From: a virus
Lineage: Duplodnaviria; Heunggongvirae; Uroviricota; Caudoviricetes
DNA: 43,825 nucleotides
Virus record (IMG/VR): IMGVR_UViG_2711768001_000012
Reading direction: 5' to 3' (one strand)
Made by a program: the position numbers and the translations under genes. The notes beneath the pieces were generated by a model that did no database searches, was not told the DNA's origin, and was given only the letters and a program-made list of their open reading frames with translations. Positions 7,160 through 43,825 of this stretch are shown here, piece by piece; within the stretch, counting starts at the first letter, position 1; every line of letters begins with the position of its first letter.

Positions 7160-7311
7160 CTTACTGTGTGCTTCTCCAACCATCGGCGCGCACCAGTTTC
7201 GGTTTTAAATGTTTTGCTTTTGGTATACGTCATGGCAGTGAACGTTCCATCCTGGTTGGGGAACACGCCGCACACCAGGGATTCGTTGTTGCCGAGGTCG
7301 ATTTTTTGCAT
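7156..7311 (-). CDS. ydaF: YdaF-like small protein
   Basis: Hand-translated 51-aa ORF: MQKIDLGNNESLVCGVFPNQDGTFTAMTYTKSKTFKTETGARRWLEKHTVS; convergent with sieB and overlapping it by 4 nt. Confidence 0.55.
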   Translation of the reverse strand: MQKIDLGNNESLVCGVFPNQDGTFTAMTYTKSKTFKTETGARRWLEKHTVS

Positions 7312-7321
7312 TTTGCGAATC

Positions 7322-7456
7322 TCACATCTTGTTGCTGTGTATAGCGACTTCTGCCTGCCAGAGATCCCAGTCGTTGCTGCGTAAAGCCTGCACAGCCTGG
7401 TTGTAAGTGATACCGCAACAATCCATCAAATACTGAACTACTTCGTAATGCACCAT
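7322..7456 (-). CDS. ydaG: YdaG-like small protein
   Basis: 44-aa product from ATG 7456 (MVHYEVVQYLMDCCGITYNQAVQALRSNDWDLWQAEVAIHSNKM) preceded by GGGGAGAG. Confidence 0.6.
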   Translation of the reverse strand: MVHYEVVQYLMDCCGITYNQAVQALRSNDWDLWQAEVAIHSNKM

Positions 7457-7599
7457 CTTATCTCTCCCCTTAACGCCGGGTGGCGGAACTGAAACCTGCT
7501 GCACTGCAAAATCTGAACCCTGCCGTCATGTTCATACGCCTCGGGCTGGCTACTTAACCCCTGACCACTGCCTGGTAACTCGAAGTATTGCCCTGCGTT

Positions 7600-7690
7600 C
7601 TGTGGGGCGGGGTGGGTTGGTAGGTATATAATGTACTTTGTGTTCATTGATGTAAAGTACTATAAGTACATTTTGTGTGTAAAAAAATGA
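7600..7690 (-). promoter_or_regulatory. Candidate leftward early promoter/operator region with GTAC-core repeats
   Basis: Intergenic between racR-like 3' end and ydaG; perfect 7-bp inverted repeat GTACTTT (7633-7639) / AAAGTAC (7654-7660) and a third AAGTACA copy at about 7665-7671; TATATAAT and TTTACA-like hexamers on the minus strand. Confidence 0.3.
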
Positions 7691-7746
7691 GATGGGATAA
7701 AGTGAAGCACAAACCCGGAGGGGGACGCTACCGGATTTATGCTGGT

Positions 7747-8166
7747 TTAAGAGGCTTTTTGTTTTTTCTTTCGTGCTAGCTCTTCGTAAATTGCATTGTA
7801 CTTCTGTTTTTTCTCCTCAAGAGTTTTTAAAAGTTCATCTGTCTCACTGTCAGGGAGCTCGTCCAGAAGGTCAATGATGATTTTTTGTCTTGGATTTAAC
7901 TCCTGATAGAAACGTACCTGTCCACTTTCTTCTGTATCCTCTCCCAAAAGATAGGTTGGTGTTGTTCCAATGAGTGTTGCTAATTCCCTTAATTTCTCTC
8001 GGCGAGGAATTGTTTCGCCATTAAACCATTTGCTAACCGCTTTTGGTGTTAATTTCATTCGACGGGCAATTTCTGCCTGCCTTCCATGTTGTTCATAACC
8101 AGCGTTTTCACAGGCTAGCGCAAGCCTACTGGCGAACTCTTTACGCGCTTTATCTTCATGAACCAT
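7747..8166 (-). CDS. HTH (XRE/cI-like) prophage repressor, RacR-like position
   Basis: Helix-turn-helix segment QAEIARRMKLTPKAVSKWFNGETIPRREKLRELATLIGTTPTYLL; transcribed divergently from ydaS; no S24 peptidase motif seen; first ATG at 8166 (track start 8184 is a GTG), possibly leaderless. Confidence 0.7.
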   Translation of the reverse strand: MVHEDKARKEFASRLALACENAGYEQHGRQAEIARRMKLTPKAVSKWFNGETIPRREKLRELATLIGTTPTYLLGEDTEESGQVRFYQELNPRQKIIIDLLDELPDSETDELLKTLEEKKQKYNAIYEELARKKKQKAS

Positions 8167-8245
8167 AAGTTCAATGATATTCACTCTTGAATGTACTGTC
8201 AGTTCTGTTATAGCATGTACTCAAAGTTCACATTGTGAGGGTGAT
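8167..8245. promoter_or_regulatory. Divergent immunity promoter/operator region (repressor vs ydaS)
   Basis: 79-bp intergenic region; two ATGTACT copies (8191-8197 and 8215-8221), an ACTGTCAGT palindrome, and TTGAAT-17 bp-TATAGC promoter-like hexamers ahead of ydaS. Confidence 0.45.
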
Positions 8246-8500
8246 ATGAACCAGAAAACACTTGAAGATGTAATCAAAACTGTTCGCGTTTCTGTTGTGG
8301 CCGACGTTTGTGGTGTCAGCCAAAGAGCAATCTACAAATGGATGGATAACGGAAAATTGCCTCGCACAGAATATACCGGCGAAACAAATTACGCTGAAAA
8401 AATCGCTCATGCATCAAACGGATTATTTTCTGCTGATGTAATTTTAACTATTGGCAGAAATAAAACTACTACGAAAAAGCTGATGGGAGTTGATTCATGA
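8246..8500 (+). CDS. ydaS: Cro/cII-like HTH protein YdaS
   Basis: 84-aa product MNQKTLEDVIKTVRVSVVADVCGVSQRAIYKWMDNGKLPR... with HTH; GAGGGTG Shine-Dalgarno; first gene of the rightward operon. Confidence 0.75.
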   Translation: MNQKTLEDVIKTVRVSVVADVCGVSQRAIYKWMDNGKLPRTEYTGETNYAEKIAHASNGLFSADVILTIGRNKTTTKKLMGVDS

Positions 8501-8919
8501 AAATCAAGCATGAGCACATCGAGTCAGTGTTGTTAGCCCTGGCAGCCGAAAAAGGGCAGGCATGGGTAGCCAATGCCATTACTGAAGAATATCTGCGCCA
8601 GGGGGGCGGCGAATTGCCCCTGGTACCAGGCAAGGACTGGAATAATCAGCAGAATATCTATCACCGTTGGTTGAAAGGTGAAACGAAAACGCAAAGAGAA
8701 AAAATTCAGAAGCTGATCCCAGCAATTCTGGCAATCCTTCCGCGCGAGCTGCGTCACCGACTCTGCATCTTCGATACCCTGGAACGCCGTGCATTACTGG
8801 CGGCGCAGGAAGCGTTAAGTACGGCAATTGATGCGCATGATGATGCAGTCCAAGCCGTTTACCGGAAAGCGCATTTCAGCGGCGGCGGGTCTTCCGACGA
8901 TTCTGTCATTGTTCATTAA
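8497..8919 (+). CDS. ydaT: YdaT-like protein
   Basis: 140-aa ORF whose ATG overlaps the ydaS stop (ATGA), indicating translational coupling. Confidence 0.7.
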   Translation: MKIKHEHIESVLLALAAEKGQAWVANAITEEYLRQGGGELPLVPGKDWNNQQNIYHRWLKGETKTQREKIQKLIPAILAILPRELRHRLCIFDTLERRALLAAQEALSTAIDAHDDAVQAVYRKAHFSGGGSSDDSVIVH

Positions 8920-8982
8920 GCAAAAGTTTCCATGCTGTTTGTGCTTATTCTAAGCCACCGGGCAGCATCATACGGGGCAATT

Positions 8983-9789
8983 ATGGCCGCATTACCATAC
9001 ATGCAACTGTACATAGCTGATTACCTGGCTGACACCATGCATTTGTCAGCAGAGGAGCATGGTGCGTATTTGTTGCTGATGTTCAATTACTGGCAAACAG
9101 GAAAGCCAATACCTAAAAACAGGCTGGCAAAAATTGCCCGTCTGACTAACGAGCGATGGGCTGATGTTGAACCATCCTTGCAGGAGTTTTTTTGCGATAA
9201 CGGCGAGGAATGGGTGCATCTTCGGATTGAGGAAGATCTGGCATCAGTCAGGGAAAAATTAACCAAAAAATCAGCCGCAGGAAAAGCATCTGTTCAGGCC
9301 AGAAGAAGCAGAAAGGAAGCAGATGTTCAAACAAAACAAGAGAGAAATTTAACAGGTGTTCAAACAGATGTTGAAGTGGTGTTTGAACATGATGTCAACA
9401 CAAAGGCAACTAATAAAGATACAGATAAAGATCTAAAAACAGATCCCCCCCTAAATCCCCCCCGGGGGAATCGAGGTGTCAAAAAGTTTGACCCTCTGGA
9501 TATTGCTTTGCCGAACTGGATTTCTGTCTCGCTTTGGCGTGAGTGGGTTGAATTTCGCCAGGCATTGCGAAAACCGATTCGAACGGAGCAGGGCGCTAAC
9601 GGGGCGATACGGGAGCTGGAAAAATTCCGCCAGCAGGGTTTTTCACCTGAGCAGGTGATTCGACACAGCATCGCCAATGAATACCAGGGCTTGTTCGCGC
9701 CGAAAGGTGTTCGACCTGAGACGTTACTCCGACAGGTTAACACCGTCTCGTTACCGGATAGTGCGATCCCGCCAGGCTTCAGGGGGTAA
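8983..9789 (+). CDS. ydaU: YdaU-like replication-associated protein
   Basis: ORF 8932-9789; internal ATG at 8983 has better Shine-Dalgarno context; precedes the DnaC-like loader as in Rac. Confidence 0.6.
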   Translation: MAALPYMQLYIADYLADTMHLSAEEHGAYLLLMFNYWQTGKPIPKNRLAKIARLTNERWADVEPSLQEFFCDNGEEWVHLRIEEDLASVREKLTKKSAAGKASVQARRSRKEADVQTKQERNLTGVQTDVEVVFEHDVNTKATNKDTDKDLKTDPPLNPPRGNRGVKKFDPLDIALPNWISVSLWREWVEFRQALRKPIRTEQGANGAIRELEKFRQQGFSPEQVIRHSIANEYQGLFAPKGVRPETLLRQVNTVSLPDSAIPPGFRG

Positions 9790-10228: not shown

Positions 10229-10269
10229 NNNNNNNNNNNNNNNNNNNNNNNNNNNNNNNNNNNNNNNNN
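10229..10269. other. Run of 41 N (gap or masked sequence)
   Basis: Ambiguous bases; too short to hold the missing ~100 codons of the DnaC-like gene. Confidence 0.99.
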
Positions 10270-17320: not shown

Positions 17321-17910
17321 GGCTGGTTTATTGTATGCCAAATGATTATTAAAAAGGTTGTGTTAATAACAAGATCCGAAATAATATGCCTGCATATTTT
17401 TATCTTGCTTATATTCTGCATATTGTGCATAGCAGGCTCATCCCTGCAATCAAAACTGTATGATGAGTATTTTTTGTTTTCCTTTTTTCCAGTCATCTGA
17501 TGATGACCTGCTTCTTTTTAATCCGGATCGACATCAGTTTTTTAAGATAATTCCTGCGAGTTATATGCATAAATGCCACAAACTCCGCATTTTATGTGGT
17601 TGGGAGTTGCCGGGCGCGCAGTGAGTTTGCTAAGAAAACTCCTGCATGGTGAATCCCCCTGTGCGGTGGGGTGATACCATTAACCTTTTCTGTCGCCGAC
17701 AGGTATCACGAACATTTTGTTCACCGGGAGGCACCCGGCACCATGCACTTCAATAGATTCTCTCCACATTATGGATATTCTTTCAGAATATCCCACGCAG
17801 ACTTTGTGTAAATGTTAACAAATGTGCGTTTTATTTGATCTGATTCGCTGTTTGAGCGTCCAAAACAACGGTATATATAATCCTTTACTATATGACATAT
17901 GTGAGGAAAA

Positions 17911-19352: not shown

Positions 19353-19853
19353 TGCCTCCATCATTACGAAAAGTCGTTGCTGCTGCTATTGGTGGCGGAG
19401 CAATTGCTATAGCATCAGTGTTAATCACTGGCCCAAGTGGTAACGATGGTCTGGAAGGTGTCAGCTACATACCATACAAAGATATTGTTGGTGTATGGAC
19501 TGTATGTCACGGGCATACAGGAAANNNNNNNNNNNNNNNNNNNNNNNNNNNNNNNNNNNNNNNNNNNNNNNNNNNNNNNNNNNNNNNNNNNNNNNNNNNN
19601 NNNNNNNNNNNNNNNNNNNNNNNNNNNNNNNNNNNNNNNNNNNNNNNNNNNNNNNNNNNNNNNNNNNNNNNNNNNNNNNNNNNNNNNNNNNNNNNNNNNN
19701 NNNNNNNNNNNNNNNNNNNNNNNNNNNNNNNNNNNNNNNNNNNNNNNNNNNNNNNNNNNNNNNNNNNNNNNNNNNNNNNNNNNNNNGCAATGGAAAGGTC
19801 TCATGACTCGTCGTGAGATTGAGCGTGAAATCTGTTTGTGGGGTCAGCAATGA
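19352..19853 (+). CDS. SAR endolysin (phage 21 R-like lysozyme), middle replaced by N-run
   Basis: N-terminal SAR segment [27 protein letters not shown]; the C-terminus [21 protein letters not shown] appears in a different frame after the N-run, so the N length is not frame-true. Confidence 0.8.
19525..19786. other. Run of 262 N inside the endolysin gene
   Basis: Ambiguous bases; flanking endolysin segments are in different frames. Confidence 0.99.
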
Positions 19854-40099: not shown

Positions 40100-40448
40100 N
40101 NNNNNNNNNNNNNNNNNNNNNNNNNNNNNNNNNNNNNNNNNNNNNNNNNNNNNNNNNNNNNNNNNNNNNNNNNNNNNNNNNNNNNNNNNNNNNNNNNNNN
40201 NNNNNNNNNNNNNNNNNNNNNNNNNNNNNNNNNNNNNNNNNNNNNNNNNNNNNNNNNNNNNNNNNNNNNNNNNNNNNNNNNNNNNNNNNNNNNNNNNNNN
40301 NNNNNNNNNNNNNNNNNNNNNNNNNNNNNNNNNNNNNNNNNNNNNNNNNNNNNNNNNNNNNNNNNNNNNNNNNNNNNNNNNNNNNNNNNNNNNNNNNNNN
40401 NNNNNNNNNNNNNNNNNNNNNNNNNNNNNNNNNNNNNNNNNNNNNNNN
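40100..40448. other. Run of 349 N covering the I/J junction
   Basis: Ambiguous bases hide the 3' end of I and the 5' end of J. Confidence 0.99.

Positions 40449-43825
<3,377 letters not shown>

What the first reader, a model, noticed from the sequence alone, without database searches (positions are those of the whole stretch)
7600..8245. Shared GTAC-core repeats at both candidate operator regions of the immunity locus
ATGTACT-type motifs occur twice between the repressor and ydaS (8191-8197 and 8215-8221, overlapping promoter-like hexamers) and as an inverted repeat GTACTTT / AAAGTAC plus a third copy downstream of the repressor gene (7633-7671), where a leftward early promoter for ydaG-ydaF-kilR-recET would be expected. 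Recurrence at both sites is what a lambda-style OL/OR arrangement bound by one repressor would produce.
Basis: seen in the sequence. Interest (0 to 1): 0.35.

Follow-up and report, generated by a model that had tools for sequence, protein, structure and literature searches.

The report
Prophage repressor operators, left and right
The repeated GTAC motifs are half-sites of five 15-bp binding sites that flank a prophage repressor gene, three on one side and two on the other, a layout already shown by experiment for the related phages 933W and HK022, so the finding is real but ordinary.

Summary
The real unit is a 15-bp dyad, TG(T/A)AC-N5-GT(A/T)CA. They overlap a leftward promoter (TTTACA-17-CATTAT), a probably leaderless repressor promoter (CTGACA-17-TATCAT) and a weaker rightward promoter. 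The window is a Rac-family prophage, but its immunity cassette (7623-8490) is not K-12's racR/ydaS. The repressor's DNA-binding domain and the Cro-like gene are HK022/933W-type. 933W has five footprinted 15-bp operators (OR1-3, OL1-2) with the same G-W-A-C half-site, read by K42 and K46, which are invariant here. Every relative examined keeps the 3+2 layout; among close relatives half-sites are nearly invariant while the N5 spacers vary freely. K-12 Rac has its own RacR dyads at the equivalent two positions. The one departure is a DicA-like helical tail in place of the LexA-type cleavage domain. Verdict: a new member of a known kind. No binding data exist for this protein.

The parts
7623..8490 (.). 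Immunity (imm) cassette: left operators, repressor gene, right operators and cro-like gene. This stretch replaces the racR/ydaS cassette of K-12 Rac.
   Evidence: blastn against K-12 Rac gives 99.3% identity up to 7622 and 99.4% from 8491, with no match in between.
7632..7646 (.). OL1: dyad TGTAC-TTTGT-GTTCA. It lies in the spacer of the leftward promoter and covers the first two bases of its -10 hexamer.
   Evidence: Half-sites are conserved and the spacer varies across 42 variants. Relatives have an equivalent site.
7656..7670 (.). OL2: dyad AGTAC-TATAA-GTACA (minus strand TGTAC-TTATA-GTACT). It abuts the -35 of the leftward promoter and shares one base with it.
7628..7656 (-). Candidate PL: -35 TTTACA (7656-7651), 17-nt spacer, -10 CATTAT (7633-7628). 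It points towards the ydaG-like gene, ydaF, kilR and recET.
   Evidence: Promoter scan scores it 9 of 12. TTTACA is unchanged at this position in HK022, Klebsiella phage 2b and the Salmonella prophages. K-12 has TTGACA-17-TATAGT at the same place. The transcription start has not been mapped.
7747..8166 (-). Repressor gene (139 aa): an HK022/933W-type helix-turn-helix domain plus a DicA-like helical tail, with no S24 peptidase domain.
   Evidence: Pfam HTH_3. 100% identical to the annotated CI repressor of phage Tritos. K42 and K46 are invariant across the family. Aligns to DicA. AlphaFold2 model.
8159..8173 (.). OR3: dyad TGAAC-CATAA-GTTCA with the repressor ATG (8166-8164, minus strand) inside its N5 spacer. 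Predicted to give autorepression.
   Evidence: Identical on the other strand to HK022's TGAACTTATGGTTCA. Equivalent in position to the annotated OR3 of 24B.
8174..8202 (-). Candidate PRM: -35 CTGACA (8202-8197, inside OR2), 17-nt spacer, -10 TATCAT (8179-8174). The predicted start is at or 1 nt before the ATG, giving a leaderless repressor mRNA.
   Evidence: Promoter scan scores it 10 of 12. 24B annotates its pRM start 1 nt before the cI ATG. Not mapped here.
8192..8206 (.). OR2: dyad TGTAC-TGTCA-GTTCT. It lies in the PR spacer and covers the -35 of PRM.
8187..8216 (+). Candidate PR: -35 TTGAAT (8187-8192), 18-nt spacer, -10 TAGCAT (8211-8216). It points towards the cro-like gene.
   Evidence: Read from the sequence. 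It scores only 8 of 12, below the scan's threshold. It sits at the same position as the annotated pR of 24B (TTGCAA-18-TAATAC) and as HK022's TTGACT-18-TAATAT. Inferred, not mapped.
8216..8230 (.). OR1: dyad TGTAC-TCAAA-GTTCA. It shares one base with the PR -10 and covers the predicted start site.
8246..8500 (+). Cro-like gene (84 aa). It occupies the position of ydaS but is HK022-Cro-type.
   Evidence: 59% identical to HK022 Cro, 44% to 24B Cro, 19% to K-12 YdaS. Matches phrog_35.

Best explanation
The GTAC-core repeats are half-sites of five 15-bp dyad operators, TG(T/A)AC-N5-GT(A/T)CA, for the 139-aa repressor encoded between them. Each is most likely bound by a repressor dimer through its helix-turn-helix domain. 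On the left, OL1 and OL2 are 24 bp apart. One fills the spacer and the start of the -10 of a leftward promoter, and the other abuts its -35, so occupancy shuts off the ydaG-like/ydaF/kilR/recET operon. On the right, OR1 and OR2 are also 24 bp apart. They cover the start site and spacer of the rightward promoter for the cro-like gene and ydaT, so occupancy maintains lysogeny. OR3 lies 33 bp further on and straddles the repressor's own start codon and the start of a probably leaderless transcript, so at high repressor concentration it limits repressor synthesis. The HK022-type Cro-like protein probably binds the same sites with a different preference order. The whole OL-repressor-OR-cro block (7623-8490) is a portable immunity cassette of the HK022/933W family that replaces the racR/ydaS cassette in an otherwise K-12-like Rac prophage. 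What is shown here: the sites, their enrichment, their conservation pattern, the homology of protein and operators to characterised systems, and the cassette boundaries. What is inferred: actual binding, promoter activity and start sites, the order of occupancy, and any cooperativity or OL-OR looping.
For: Enrichment and confinement: the dyad core occurs 6 times against 1.41 expected, with 5 copies in the two spacers; per-spacer shuffles give P = 0.0008 or lower. Promoter overlap: TTTACA-17-CATTAT and CTGACA-17-TATCAT on the minus strand. Protein homology: the N-terminal domain is 47.5% identical to HK022 CI and 50.7% to 933W-type CI. K42 and K46, shown by mutagenesis to read 933W operator positions 2, 4 and 5 (PMC3317979), are invariant. 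Operator homology: the annotated 24B sites are OR1 CGTACTTTCAGTACG, OR2 TGAACTGAAAGTTTT and OR3 CGTACTCATGGTTCA, the last with the cI ATG in its spacer and the pRM start 1 nt before that ATG. HK022 carries TGAACTTATGGTTCA twice and GGAACTGATAGTACA once. 933W has exactly five natural operators, OR1-3 and OL1-2. Layout: three sites at x, x+24 and x+57 plus a downstream pair 24 bp apart occur in HK022, Klebsiella phage 2b, two Salmonella prophages, 89%-identity relatives, phage Tritos and 80 IMG/VR loci. In Salmonella the pair lies beyond an inserted higBA pair. Footprint: in a motif-blind alignment of 42 distinct left-spacer variants, half-site columns average 0.25 non-consensus variants (16 of 20 invariant), N5 columns 5.8 and other columns 1.68 (P = 0.012). 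Reciprocal control: in K-12 Rac the published RacR dyad TAGGY-N3-RCCTA occurs 4 times in 9 kb (0.00 expected). Two copies are the known right-hand sites and two lie in the racR-ydaG spacer around TTGACA-17-TATAGT. Each motif is absent from the other prophage. Function in relatives: depleting RacR in K-12 derepresses ydaG, ydaF, kilR, racC and recET 40- to 70-fold (PMC6765115; bioRxiv 10.64898/2026.09.06.749655). HK022 CI binds adjacent operators cooperatively and loops OL to OR (PMC8053113). CP-933P PaaR2 and YdaS repress a PL carrying OL1-3 (PMC8630535).
Against: There is no binding, footprint, start-site or reporter evidence for this repressor or these sites; the case rests on sequence statistics, comparison and homology. 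The rightward promoter matches the consensus only 8 of 12 and was not called by the scan. OR2 overlaps the -35 of the candidate PRM rather than abutting it, so lambda-like activation of PRM is not implied. The C-terminal domain differs from those of 933W and HK022 CI (no S24 domain), so their cooperativity and looping cannot simply be transferred. 933W repressor itself is reported not to bind adjacent sites cooperatively (abstract of PMC3317979). Many of the compared loci are close relatives, so the conservation statistics are not fully independent, and my first footprint was biased by selecting loci on the motif. removes that bias and is weaker (P = 0.012).
Confidence: 0.88

Rival explanations
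1. The dyads are real protein-binding sites, but the left pair does not control a promoter. It serves only as an auxiliary anchor for looping to the right operators, or it is chiefly a target of the Cro-like protein rather than of the repressor.
For: No transcription start has been mapped. The candidate PL matches the consensus only 9 of 12. HK022 CI does loop OL to OR. In CP-933P both PaaR2 and YdaS act on the left promoter, so which protein occupies the sites cannot be told from sequence.
Against: The -35 TTTACA and the -10 CAT-AT are conserved alongside the dyads in lineages as distant as HK022 and Klebsiella phage 2b. In Salmonella the pair follows the head of the leftward operon rather than the repressor gene. 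K-12 has a near-consensus promoter at the same place, and its leftward genes are derepressed 40- to 70-fold when RacR is depleted. In CP-933P the equivalent PL is an active, repressible promoter.
Confidence: 0.07
2. The left-hand repeats form an RNA or DNA hairpin that ends or stabilises the repressor transcript (a 3' structure or terminator) and are not protein-binding sites.
For: A perfect 9-nt inverted repeat, AATGTACTT / AAGTACATT, lies at 7630-7638 and 7664-7672. The minus-strand RNA folds at -7.1 kcal/mol with z = -2.2. The region lies downstream of the repressor stop codon.
Against: The stem is weak and AT-rich, has a 25-nt loop and no U-tract. No terminator-like site was found in 7400-8400. 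The bases conserved across relatives are the four half-sites, including the inner GTACT and TGAAC that do not pair in this hairpin. The same dyads recur upstream of the repressor gene, where a terminator makes no sense.
Confidence: 0.03
3. The repeats are chance recurrences of an AT-rich word in AT-rich intergenic DNA.
For: The 7-mer ATGTACT is not enriched window-wide (5 against 3.27 expected). Five other 9-of-10 matches to the dyad elsewhere in the window fit the random expectation of 4.8.
Against: Composition-matched shuffles of each spacer rarely give two sites (P = 0.0008 or lower). The spacings of 24, 24 and 33 bp are fixed and recur in all relatives. Substitutions avoid the half-sites. 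Experimentally mapped operators of homologous repressors have the same sequence.
Confidence: 0.02

Closest known systems
Operators of Shiga-toxin phage 933W and the 933W-type phage vB_EcoP_24B (OR1-3, OL1-2) and their CI repressor
   Same: 15-bp dyads with G-(A/T)-A-C at positions 2-5 of each half-site, a loosely conserved position 1, T or C at position 6 and an A/T-rich centre. Three sites at OR and two at OL. OR3 has the repressor ATG in its spacer, and the repressor mRNA is leaderless. The helix-turn-helix domains are homologous (50.7% over residues 1-73), with K42 and K46 conserved.
   Different: The repressor here is 139 aa with a DicA-like helical tail instead of the S24 autocleavage domain. 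Residue 41 is Pro, not Ser. OR1-OR2 spacing is 24 bp rather than 25. OR2 here has two good half-sites, whereas 933W-type OR2 has one deviant half (GTTTT). The host element is a Rac-family prophage at ttcA, not an Stx phage.
Immunity region of coliphage HK022 (cI, cro, OR, OL)
   Same: The same half-sites and 5-nt spacer. HK022's TGAACTTATGGTTCA is identical to the window's OR3. OR starts fall at x, x+24 and x+57 and the OL pair is 24 bp apart. TTTACA follows OL2 in both. Cro is 59% identical, and the CI N-terminal domain is 47.5% identical with a nearly identical recognition helix (TPKAISKWFNGE against TPKAVSKWFNGE). Cooperative binding and OL-OR looping are documented for HK022 (PMC8053113).
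   Different: HK022 CI has an S24 domain. HK022 also has extra sites (an OL3, and an operator about 300 bp downstream of OR, seen at L004 2164), and no counterpart of either was found here. The flanking genes differ: nun and cII in HK022, against a ydaG-like gene and ydaT here.
RacR/YdaS/YdaT immunity region of E. coli K-12 Rac
   Same: Same prophage backbone, 99.3-99.4% identical on both sides of the cassette. Same geometry: a repressor flanked by dyads, one right-hand dyad holding the repressor ATG in its spacer, and promoters with one dyad abutting the -35 and one across the spacer and -10.
   Different: The repressor, the cro-like gene and the operator motif ((T/A)TAGGC-N3-GCCTA(T/A)) are all unrelated. 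Neither motif occurs in the other element. The papers read map only the right-hand RacR operators.
PaaR2/YdaS/YdaT switch of cryptic prophage CP-933P (E. coli O157:H7)
   Same: A Rac-like prophage in which a CI-like repressor and a Cro-like YdaS were shown by experiment to control both PR/PRM and a distal PL carrying OL1-3. The repressor mRNA is leaderless (PMC8630535).
   Different: A different operator sequence (GTTTAGTAA-type 18-bp palindromes), four right-hand repeats, and a toxin-antitoxin pair co-transcribed with the repressor.
DicA repressor of the Qin prophage
   Same: The same two-domain architecture: helix-turn-helix domain, linker and a short helical tail carrying an LP-SE-D motif. 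29% identity over residues 30-137, E = 5e-15. dicA also has 5-N5-5 dyads on both sides (seen by eye).
   Different: A different recognition sequence (TTAGT-N5-CTAAC type), and the N-terminal 29 residues do not align.

Membership tests
HK022/933W-type lambdoid operator-repressor set | 15-bp dyad operators with G-(A/T)-A-C at positions 2-5 of both half-sites and a 5-bp centre | tested here: met
   All five sites match GWAC-N5-GTWC exactly. The pattern matches the annotated 24B operators, HK022's spacer and the base preferences mapped for 933W.
HK022/933W-type lambdoid operator-repressor set | Repressor DNA-binding domain homologous to 933W/HK022 CI, with the recognition-helix residues K42 and K46 | tested here: met
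   47.5% and 50.7% identity by tblastn. K42, S45, K46, W47, F48 and N49 are invariant in alignment A2. Residue 41 is Pro, as in HK022, not Ser as in 933W.
HK022/933W-type lambdoid operator-repressor set | Three operators between the repressor gene and cro, two at the head of the leftward operon | tested here: met
   Sites at 8159, 8192, 8216 and at 7632, 7656. No further site scoring 8 of 10 with an intact core lies in 7300-9000. 933W has five natural operators.
HK022/933W-type lambdoid operator-repressor set | OR3 spans the repressor start codon, and PRM gives a leaderless mRNA | tested here: inconclusive
   The sequence fits: the ATG lies in the OR3 spacer, and the -10 TATCAT ends 7 nt before the ATG, as annotated for 24B. 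The start site cannot be mapped with these tools.
HK022/933W-type lambdoid operator-repressor set | Repressor carries a LexA-like S24 autocleavage C-terminal domain (RecA-dependent induction) | tested here: not met
   No Peptidase_S24 match. The protein ends at 139 aa with a helical tail where HK022, 24B, P0021 and P0034 have the S24 domain. The tail is DicA-like and is modelled as a helical hairpin. The protein is therefore a domain-swapped relative, not a full-length ortholog.
HK022/933W-type lambdoid operator-repressor set | Sequence-specific binding of the repressor to these sites | not testable with these tools
   Needs EMSA, footprinting or ChIP.
Lambda-style OL/OR immunity region | One repressor gene flanked by two operator clusters that share one motif | tested here: met
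   The K-12 Rac control shows the same with its own motif.
Lambda-style OL/OR immunity region | Each cluster overlaps an outward-facing sigma-70 promoter | tested here: inconclusive
   The PL candidate scores 9 of 12 and is conserved. The PR candidate scores only 8 of 12 and is supported by positional homology to the annotated 24B pR. No promoter activity has been measured.
Lambda-style OL/OR immunity region | A divergent cro-like gene next to OR | tested here: met
   The gene at 8246-8500 is 59% identical to HK022 Cro.
Lambda-style OL/OR immunity region | Cooperative binding at adjacent sites and long-range OL-OR looping | not testable with these tools
   The 24-bp spacing equals HK022's, and OL to OR is 503-584 bp centre to centre. 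The C-terminal domain differs, so behaviour cannot be inferred.
K-12 Rac racR/ydaS immunity type | A RacR ortholog with TAGGC-N3-GCCTA operators and a YdaS ortholog | tested here: not met
   No nucleotide homology across 7623-8490. The K-12 dyad is absent from the window. The cro-like protein is 19% identical to YdaS.

The most novel reading that the evidence does not exclude
The repressor is a natural chimera. An HK022/933W-specificity DNA-binding domain is fused to a DicA-type helical tail in place of the RecA-cleavable S24 domain. If so, this very common E. coli prophage type (at least 80% of the 1.2-kb query region is present in 1044 of 5426 complete genomes) would be held by a repressor that SOS-induced cleavage cannot remove. 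Because its operators and recognition helix are nearly identical to HK022's, it might also cross-repress, or be cross-repressed by, HK022-immunity phages, and perhaps partly by 933W-type Stx phages. That would link the induction of separate prophages in one cell.
Probability: 0.3. Interest if true: 0.45.

Novelty: new member of a known kind. Interest (0 to 1): 0.22.

Why it matters
The result gives a precise, testable operator map for an immunity type carried by about a fifth of complete E. coli genomes and by the sequenced phage Tritos. It shows that 'Rac' prophages come in at least two immunity types that differ in repressor, operators and cro-like gene, so results for K-12 RacR/YdaS should not be carried over to these strains. 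As a by-product, it indicates that K-12 Rac itself has left-hand RacR operators around a near-consensus leftward promoter. That would explain why kilR and recET are derepressed when RacR is depleted, and none of the six Rac papers I read maps these sites. None of this changes how lambdoid switches are understood to work.

Tried and rejected
- Window-wide enrichment of the 7-mer ATGTACT was not significant. AATGTACTKT with one mismatch was not significant either. Only the dyad and its clustering are informative.
- A first conservation analysis selected loci by motif score and so overstated half-site conservation. A purely positional re-extraction was degraded by small indels in a few loci. I replaced both with a motif-blind MAFFT alignment.
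- The K-12 RacR motif was searched for in the window and was absent.
- Extra sites like HK022's OL3 or its operator downstream of OR were searched for in 7300-9000 and none was found.
- The sixth core match at 17710-17722 and five other 9-of-10 matches were judged to be background.
- A terminator or hairpin reading of the left region was tested and found weak.
- PDB sequence search and Foldseek returned only generic XRE-family helix-turn-helix hits, for example P22 C2 and SinR, and gave no information about the C-terminal tail.
- A literature search found nothing on phage Tritos and no description of a Rac left operator or of sbcA mutations at this site in the library held. Older subscription-journal papers on HK022 (Carlson and Little 1993) and on Rac kil and sbcA could not be read.
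Full report
**What is in the sequence.** Counted over the whole 43.8-kb window the 7-mer is not enriched (5 copies, 3.27 expected, 27 of 100 shuffles reach 5). Four of the five copies nevertheless fall in the two short non-coding stretches on either side of the gene at 7747-8166.

The repeat finder showed that the unit is longer, ATGTACT-N4-GTTC. A direct scan showed a 15-bp dyad, TG[T/A]AC-N5-GT[A/T]CA. Its core, GWAC-N5-GTWC, occurs six times in the window against 1.41 expected, and no shuffle in 100 reaches six. Five of the six are at 7633, 7657, 8160, 8193 and 8217. Shuffling each spacer on its own composition gives P = 0.0008 for the left pair; for the right pair no shuffle in 5000 reached the observed count. 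The other 9-of-10 matches in the window (five of them) fit the random expectation of 4.8.

The observation therefore stands, with two corrections.

**Context.** The window is a Rac-family prophage inserted at ttcA, with intR, xisR, ralR, recT, recE, racC, kilR, sieB, ydaF, ydaT, ydaU and ydaV. At least 80% of the 1.2-kb stretch around the finding is present in 1044 of 5426 complete E. coli genomes. It is not, however, the K-12 immunity region. Identity to K-12 Rac is 99.3% up to 7622 and 99.4% from 8491, with nothing alignable in between.

The 868-bp cassette holds four things: the left dyads, a 139-aa HTH_3 protein, the right dyads, and an 84-aa cro-like gene. That gene is 59% identical to HK022 Cro, 44% to the Cro of the 933W-type phage 24B, and only 19% to K-12 YdaS. 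The repressor is 100% identical to the annotated CI repressor of Escherichia phage Tritos. Its N-terminal domain is 47.5% identical to HK022 CI, 50.7% to 933W-type CI and about 63% to Klebsiella phage repressors.

**Promoters.** A consensus scan of 7400-8400 returns exactly two sites, both on the minus strand.
- TTTACA-17-CATTAT at 7656 to 7628 points into the ydaG-like/ydaF/kilR/recET operon. OL2 abuts its -35, and OL1 fills its spacer and the first two bases of its -10.
- CTGACA-17-TATCAT at 8202 to 8174 has a -10 that ends 7 nt before the repressor ATG, which implies a leaderless mRNA. Its -35 lies inside OR2.

The rightward promoter is weaker: TTGAAT-18-TAGCAT at 8187-8216 scores 8 of 12 and falls below the scan's threshold. 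It does occupy the same position, relative to OR1 and OR2, as the annotated pR of 24B (TTGCAA-18-TAATAC) and as HK022's TTGACT-18-TAATAT. No terminator-like site was found. The left region folds only weakly as RNA (-7.1 kcal/mol, no U-tract).

**Link to characterised systems.** The GenBank record of 24B annotates OR1 CGTACTTTCAGTACG, OR2 TGAACTGAAAGTTTT and OR3 CGTACTCATGGTTCA. OR3 has the cI ATG in its centre, and the pRM start is 1 nt before that ATG. HK022's cI-cro spacer carries TGAACTTATGGTTCA twice and GGAACTGATAGTACA once. The first of these is identical to the window's OR3 read on the other strand.

Koudelka and colleagues (PMC3317979) report the following for 933W:
- It has five natural 15-bp operators, OR1-3 and OL1-2.
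- Position 1 is loosely conserved and positions 2-5 are G, A/T, A, C. T at position 3 gives tighter binding.
- Position 6 is T or C, and the centre is A/T.
- S41, K42 and K46 determine specificity.

In an alignment of the window's protein with 24B CI, HK022 CI and five other relatives, K42, S45, K46, W47, F48 and N49 are invariant. The window's dyads therefore belong to this known operator family and show the same three-plus-two count.

**Comparative evidence.** A scan of fetched loci found the same layout in every lineage: three sites starting at x, x+24 and x+57, the last over the repressor ATG, plus a pair 24 bp apart further downstream. This holds for HK022, Klebsiella phage 2b, two Salmonella prophages whose repressors are 62-65% identical, two metagenomic relatives at 89%, phage Tritos and 80 IMG/VR contigs. 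The exceptions are minor. 24B fails only because its OR2 has a deviant half-site. Two loci carry one extra mismatch in OL2, and one contig is too short.

In the Salmonella prophages a higB/higA-like pair sits between the repressor and the left pair. The pair is then 1312 nt from OR3 instead of 496. It therefore follows the head of the leftward operon, not the 3' end of the repressor gene. TTTACA immediately after OL2 is unchanged in all of these lineages.

To avoid circularity I aligned, without reference to the motif, the 170 nt after the repressor stop codon from 80 loci, which gave 42 distinct sequences.
- Half-site columns carry 0.25 non-consensus variants on average (16 of 20 invariant).
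- N5 centre columns carry 5.8 (2 of 10 invariant).
- Remaining columns carry 1.68.
- The permutation test gives P = 0.012.

An earlier version selected loci by motif and is not relied on.

**Reciprocal control.** K-12 Rac has an unrelated repressor whose footprinted operators are (T/A)TAGGC-N3-GCCTA(T/A) (PMC9638921). In 9 kb of K-12 Rac, TAGGY-N3-RCCTA occurs four times against 0.00 expected. Two copies are the published right-hand sites. The other two, 25 bp apart, lie in the racR-ydaG spacer, immediately beyond the point where homology with the window breaks. They flank a near-consensus leftward promoter, TTGACA-17-TATAGT, in the same geometry as in the window. The window's dyad is absent from K-12, and K-12's dyad is absent from the window. 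Two unrelated repressors in the same backbone thus each have their own motif at both positions, which is what an OL/OR arrangement predicts.

Functional data from relatives agree. Lowering RacR derepresses ydaG, ydaF, ydaE, kilR, racC and recET 40- to 70-fold (PMC6765115; bioRxiv 10.64898/2026.09.06.749655). CP-933P has an experimentally repressible PL with OL1-3 (PMC8630535). HK022 CI binds adjacent sites cooperatively and loops OL to OR (PMC8053113).

**How it most likely works.** Repressor dimers occupy OL1 and OL2 and block the leftward promoter. Dimers at OR1 and OR2 block the rightward promoter for cro and ydaT. OR3, over the repressor's own start, limits repressor synthesis at high concentration. 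The Cro-like protein probably uses the same sites. Binding, start sites, occupancy order, cooperativity and looping are all inferred, not shown. Centre-to-centre distances are 24 bp within each pair, 33 bp from OR2 to OR3, and 503-584 bp between left and right sites.

**What differs.** The repressor lacks the S24 autocleavage domain of 933W and HK022 CI. Residues 30-137 align with the Qin repressor DicA (29% identity, E = 5e-15), and the tail matches phrog_5736. An AlphaFold2 model built on only eight sequences (mean pLDDT 82) gives a helix-turn-helix domain at 1-74, a disordered linker at 77-87 and a helical hairpin at 92-138. Foldseek finds only generic XRE-family matches. The protein is therefore a domain-swapped relative, not a full ortholog. 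The cooperativity and RecA-dependent induction of its relatives cannot be assumed for it.

**Verdict.** It is a new member of a well-characterised operator family inside a textbook lambdoid immunity cassette, so interest is low to modest.

Noticed in passing
L002 4627-4668 (NC_000913.3 1419626-1419667), K-12 Rac racR-ydaG spacer: Two RacR-type dyads (TAGGTAATGCCTA and TAGGCTATGCCTA) bracket a near-consensus leftward promoter, TTGACA-17-TATAGT. This looks like a left operator and PL for K-12 Rac. None of the six Rac papers I read maps these sites; they map only the racR-ydaS spacer and interpret the RacR octamer as binding four sites there.
   Followed up: partly
window 7747-7940 (C-terminal third of the repressor): The repressor has no S24 peptidase domain. 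Its tail is DicA-like (29% identity to Qin DicA over residues 30-137) and is modelled as a helical hairpin. Relatives with the same DNA-binding domain (P0021, P0034, HK022, 24B) do carry the S24 domain. This implies a domain swap and probably induction that does not depend on RecA-mediated cleavage.
   Followed up: partly
window 8490-8507: A perfect YdaT box, TTGATTCATGAAAATCAA, with the ydaT ATG (8497) in its spacer, sits on the right junction of the immunity cassette (homology to K-12 resumes at 8491). It matches the CP-933P consensus TTGATT-N6-AATCAA; K-12 has ATGATT. I did not look for a PRE-like reverse promoter inside the cro-like gene.
   Followed up: no
L007 3053-3720 and L008 3088-3755 (Salmonella prophages): A higB-toxin / HTH-antitoxin-like gene pair is inserted between the repressor gene and the left operator pair. 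This parallels rexAB in lambda and paaA2-parE2 in CP-933P.
   Followed up: no
L092 about 1867-1933 and 2378-2432 (Qin prophage, both sides of dicA): dicA is flanked on both sides by its own 5-N5-5 dyads (TTAGTCATAACTAAC, TTAGCATTAGCTAAC, TTAGTCATGGCTAAT). The two-sided operator layout therefore appears to be general in Rac/Qin-type prophages. Seen by eye only, with no statistics.
   Followed up: no
window 17709-17723: A sixth exact core match, CGAACATTTTGTTCA, lies in a stretch free of ORFs of 60 aa or more and is followed by a GC-rich inverted repeat (CCGGGAGGCACCCGG). It is probably chance (1.4 core matches expected per window), but I did not check its conservation.
   Followed up: no
L003 2667-2993 (phage Tritos 'Cro'); window 8174-8500: The Tritos record starts Cro at an upstream ATG, giving 108 aa and running through OR1 and OR2. 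The family alignment and the RefSeq annotation support the 84-aa start at window 8246.
   Followed up: partly
window 10229-10269, 19525-19786, 40100-40448, 41410-41607, 41879-42120, 43095-43463: Six masked runs of N total 1461 bases. The first interrupts the ydaV-like reading frame.
   Followed up: no
window 7630-7638 and 7664-7672: A perfect 9-nt inverted repeat, AATGTACTT / AAGTACATT, is formed by the outer half-sites of OL1 and OL2 plus their flanks. The whole left region is therefore symmetric: the outer halves are TGTAC-type and the inner halves are GTACT and TGAAC. Its significance is unknown.
   Followed up: partly
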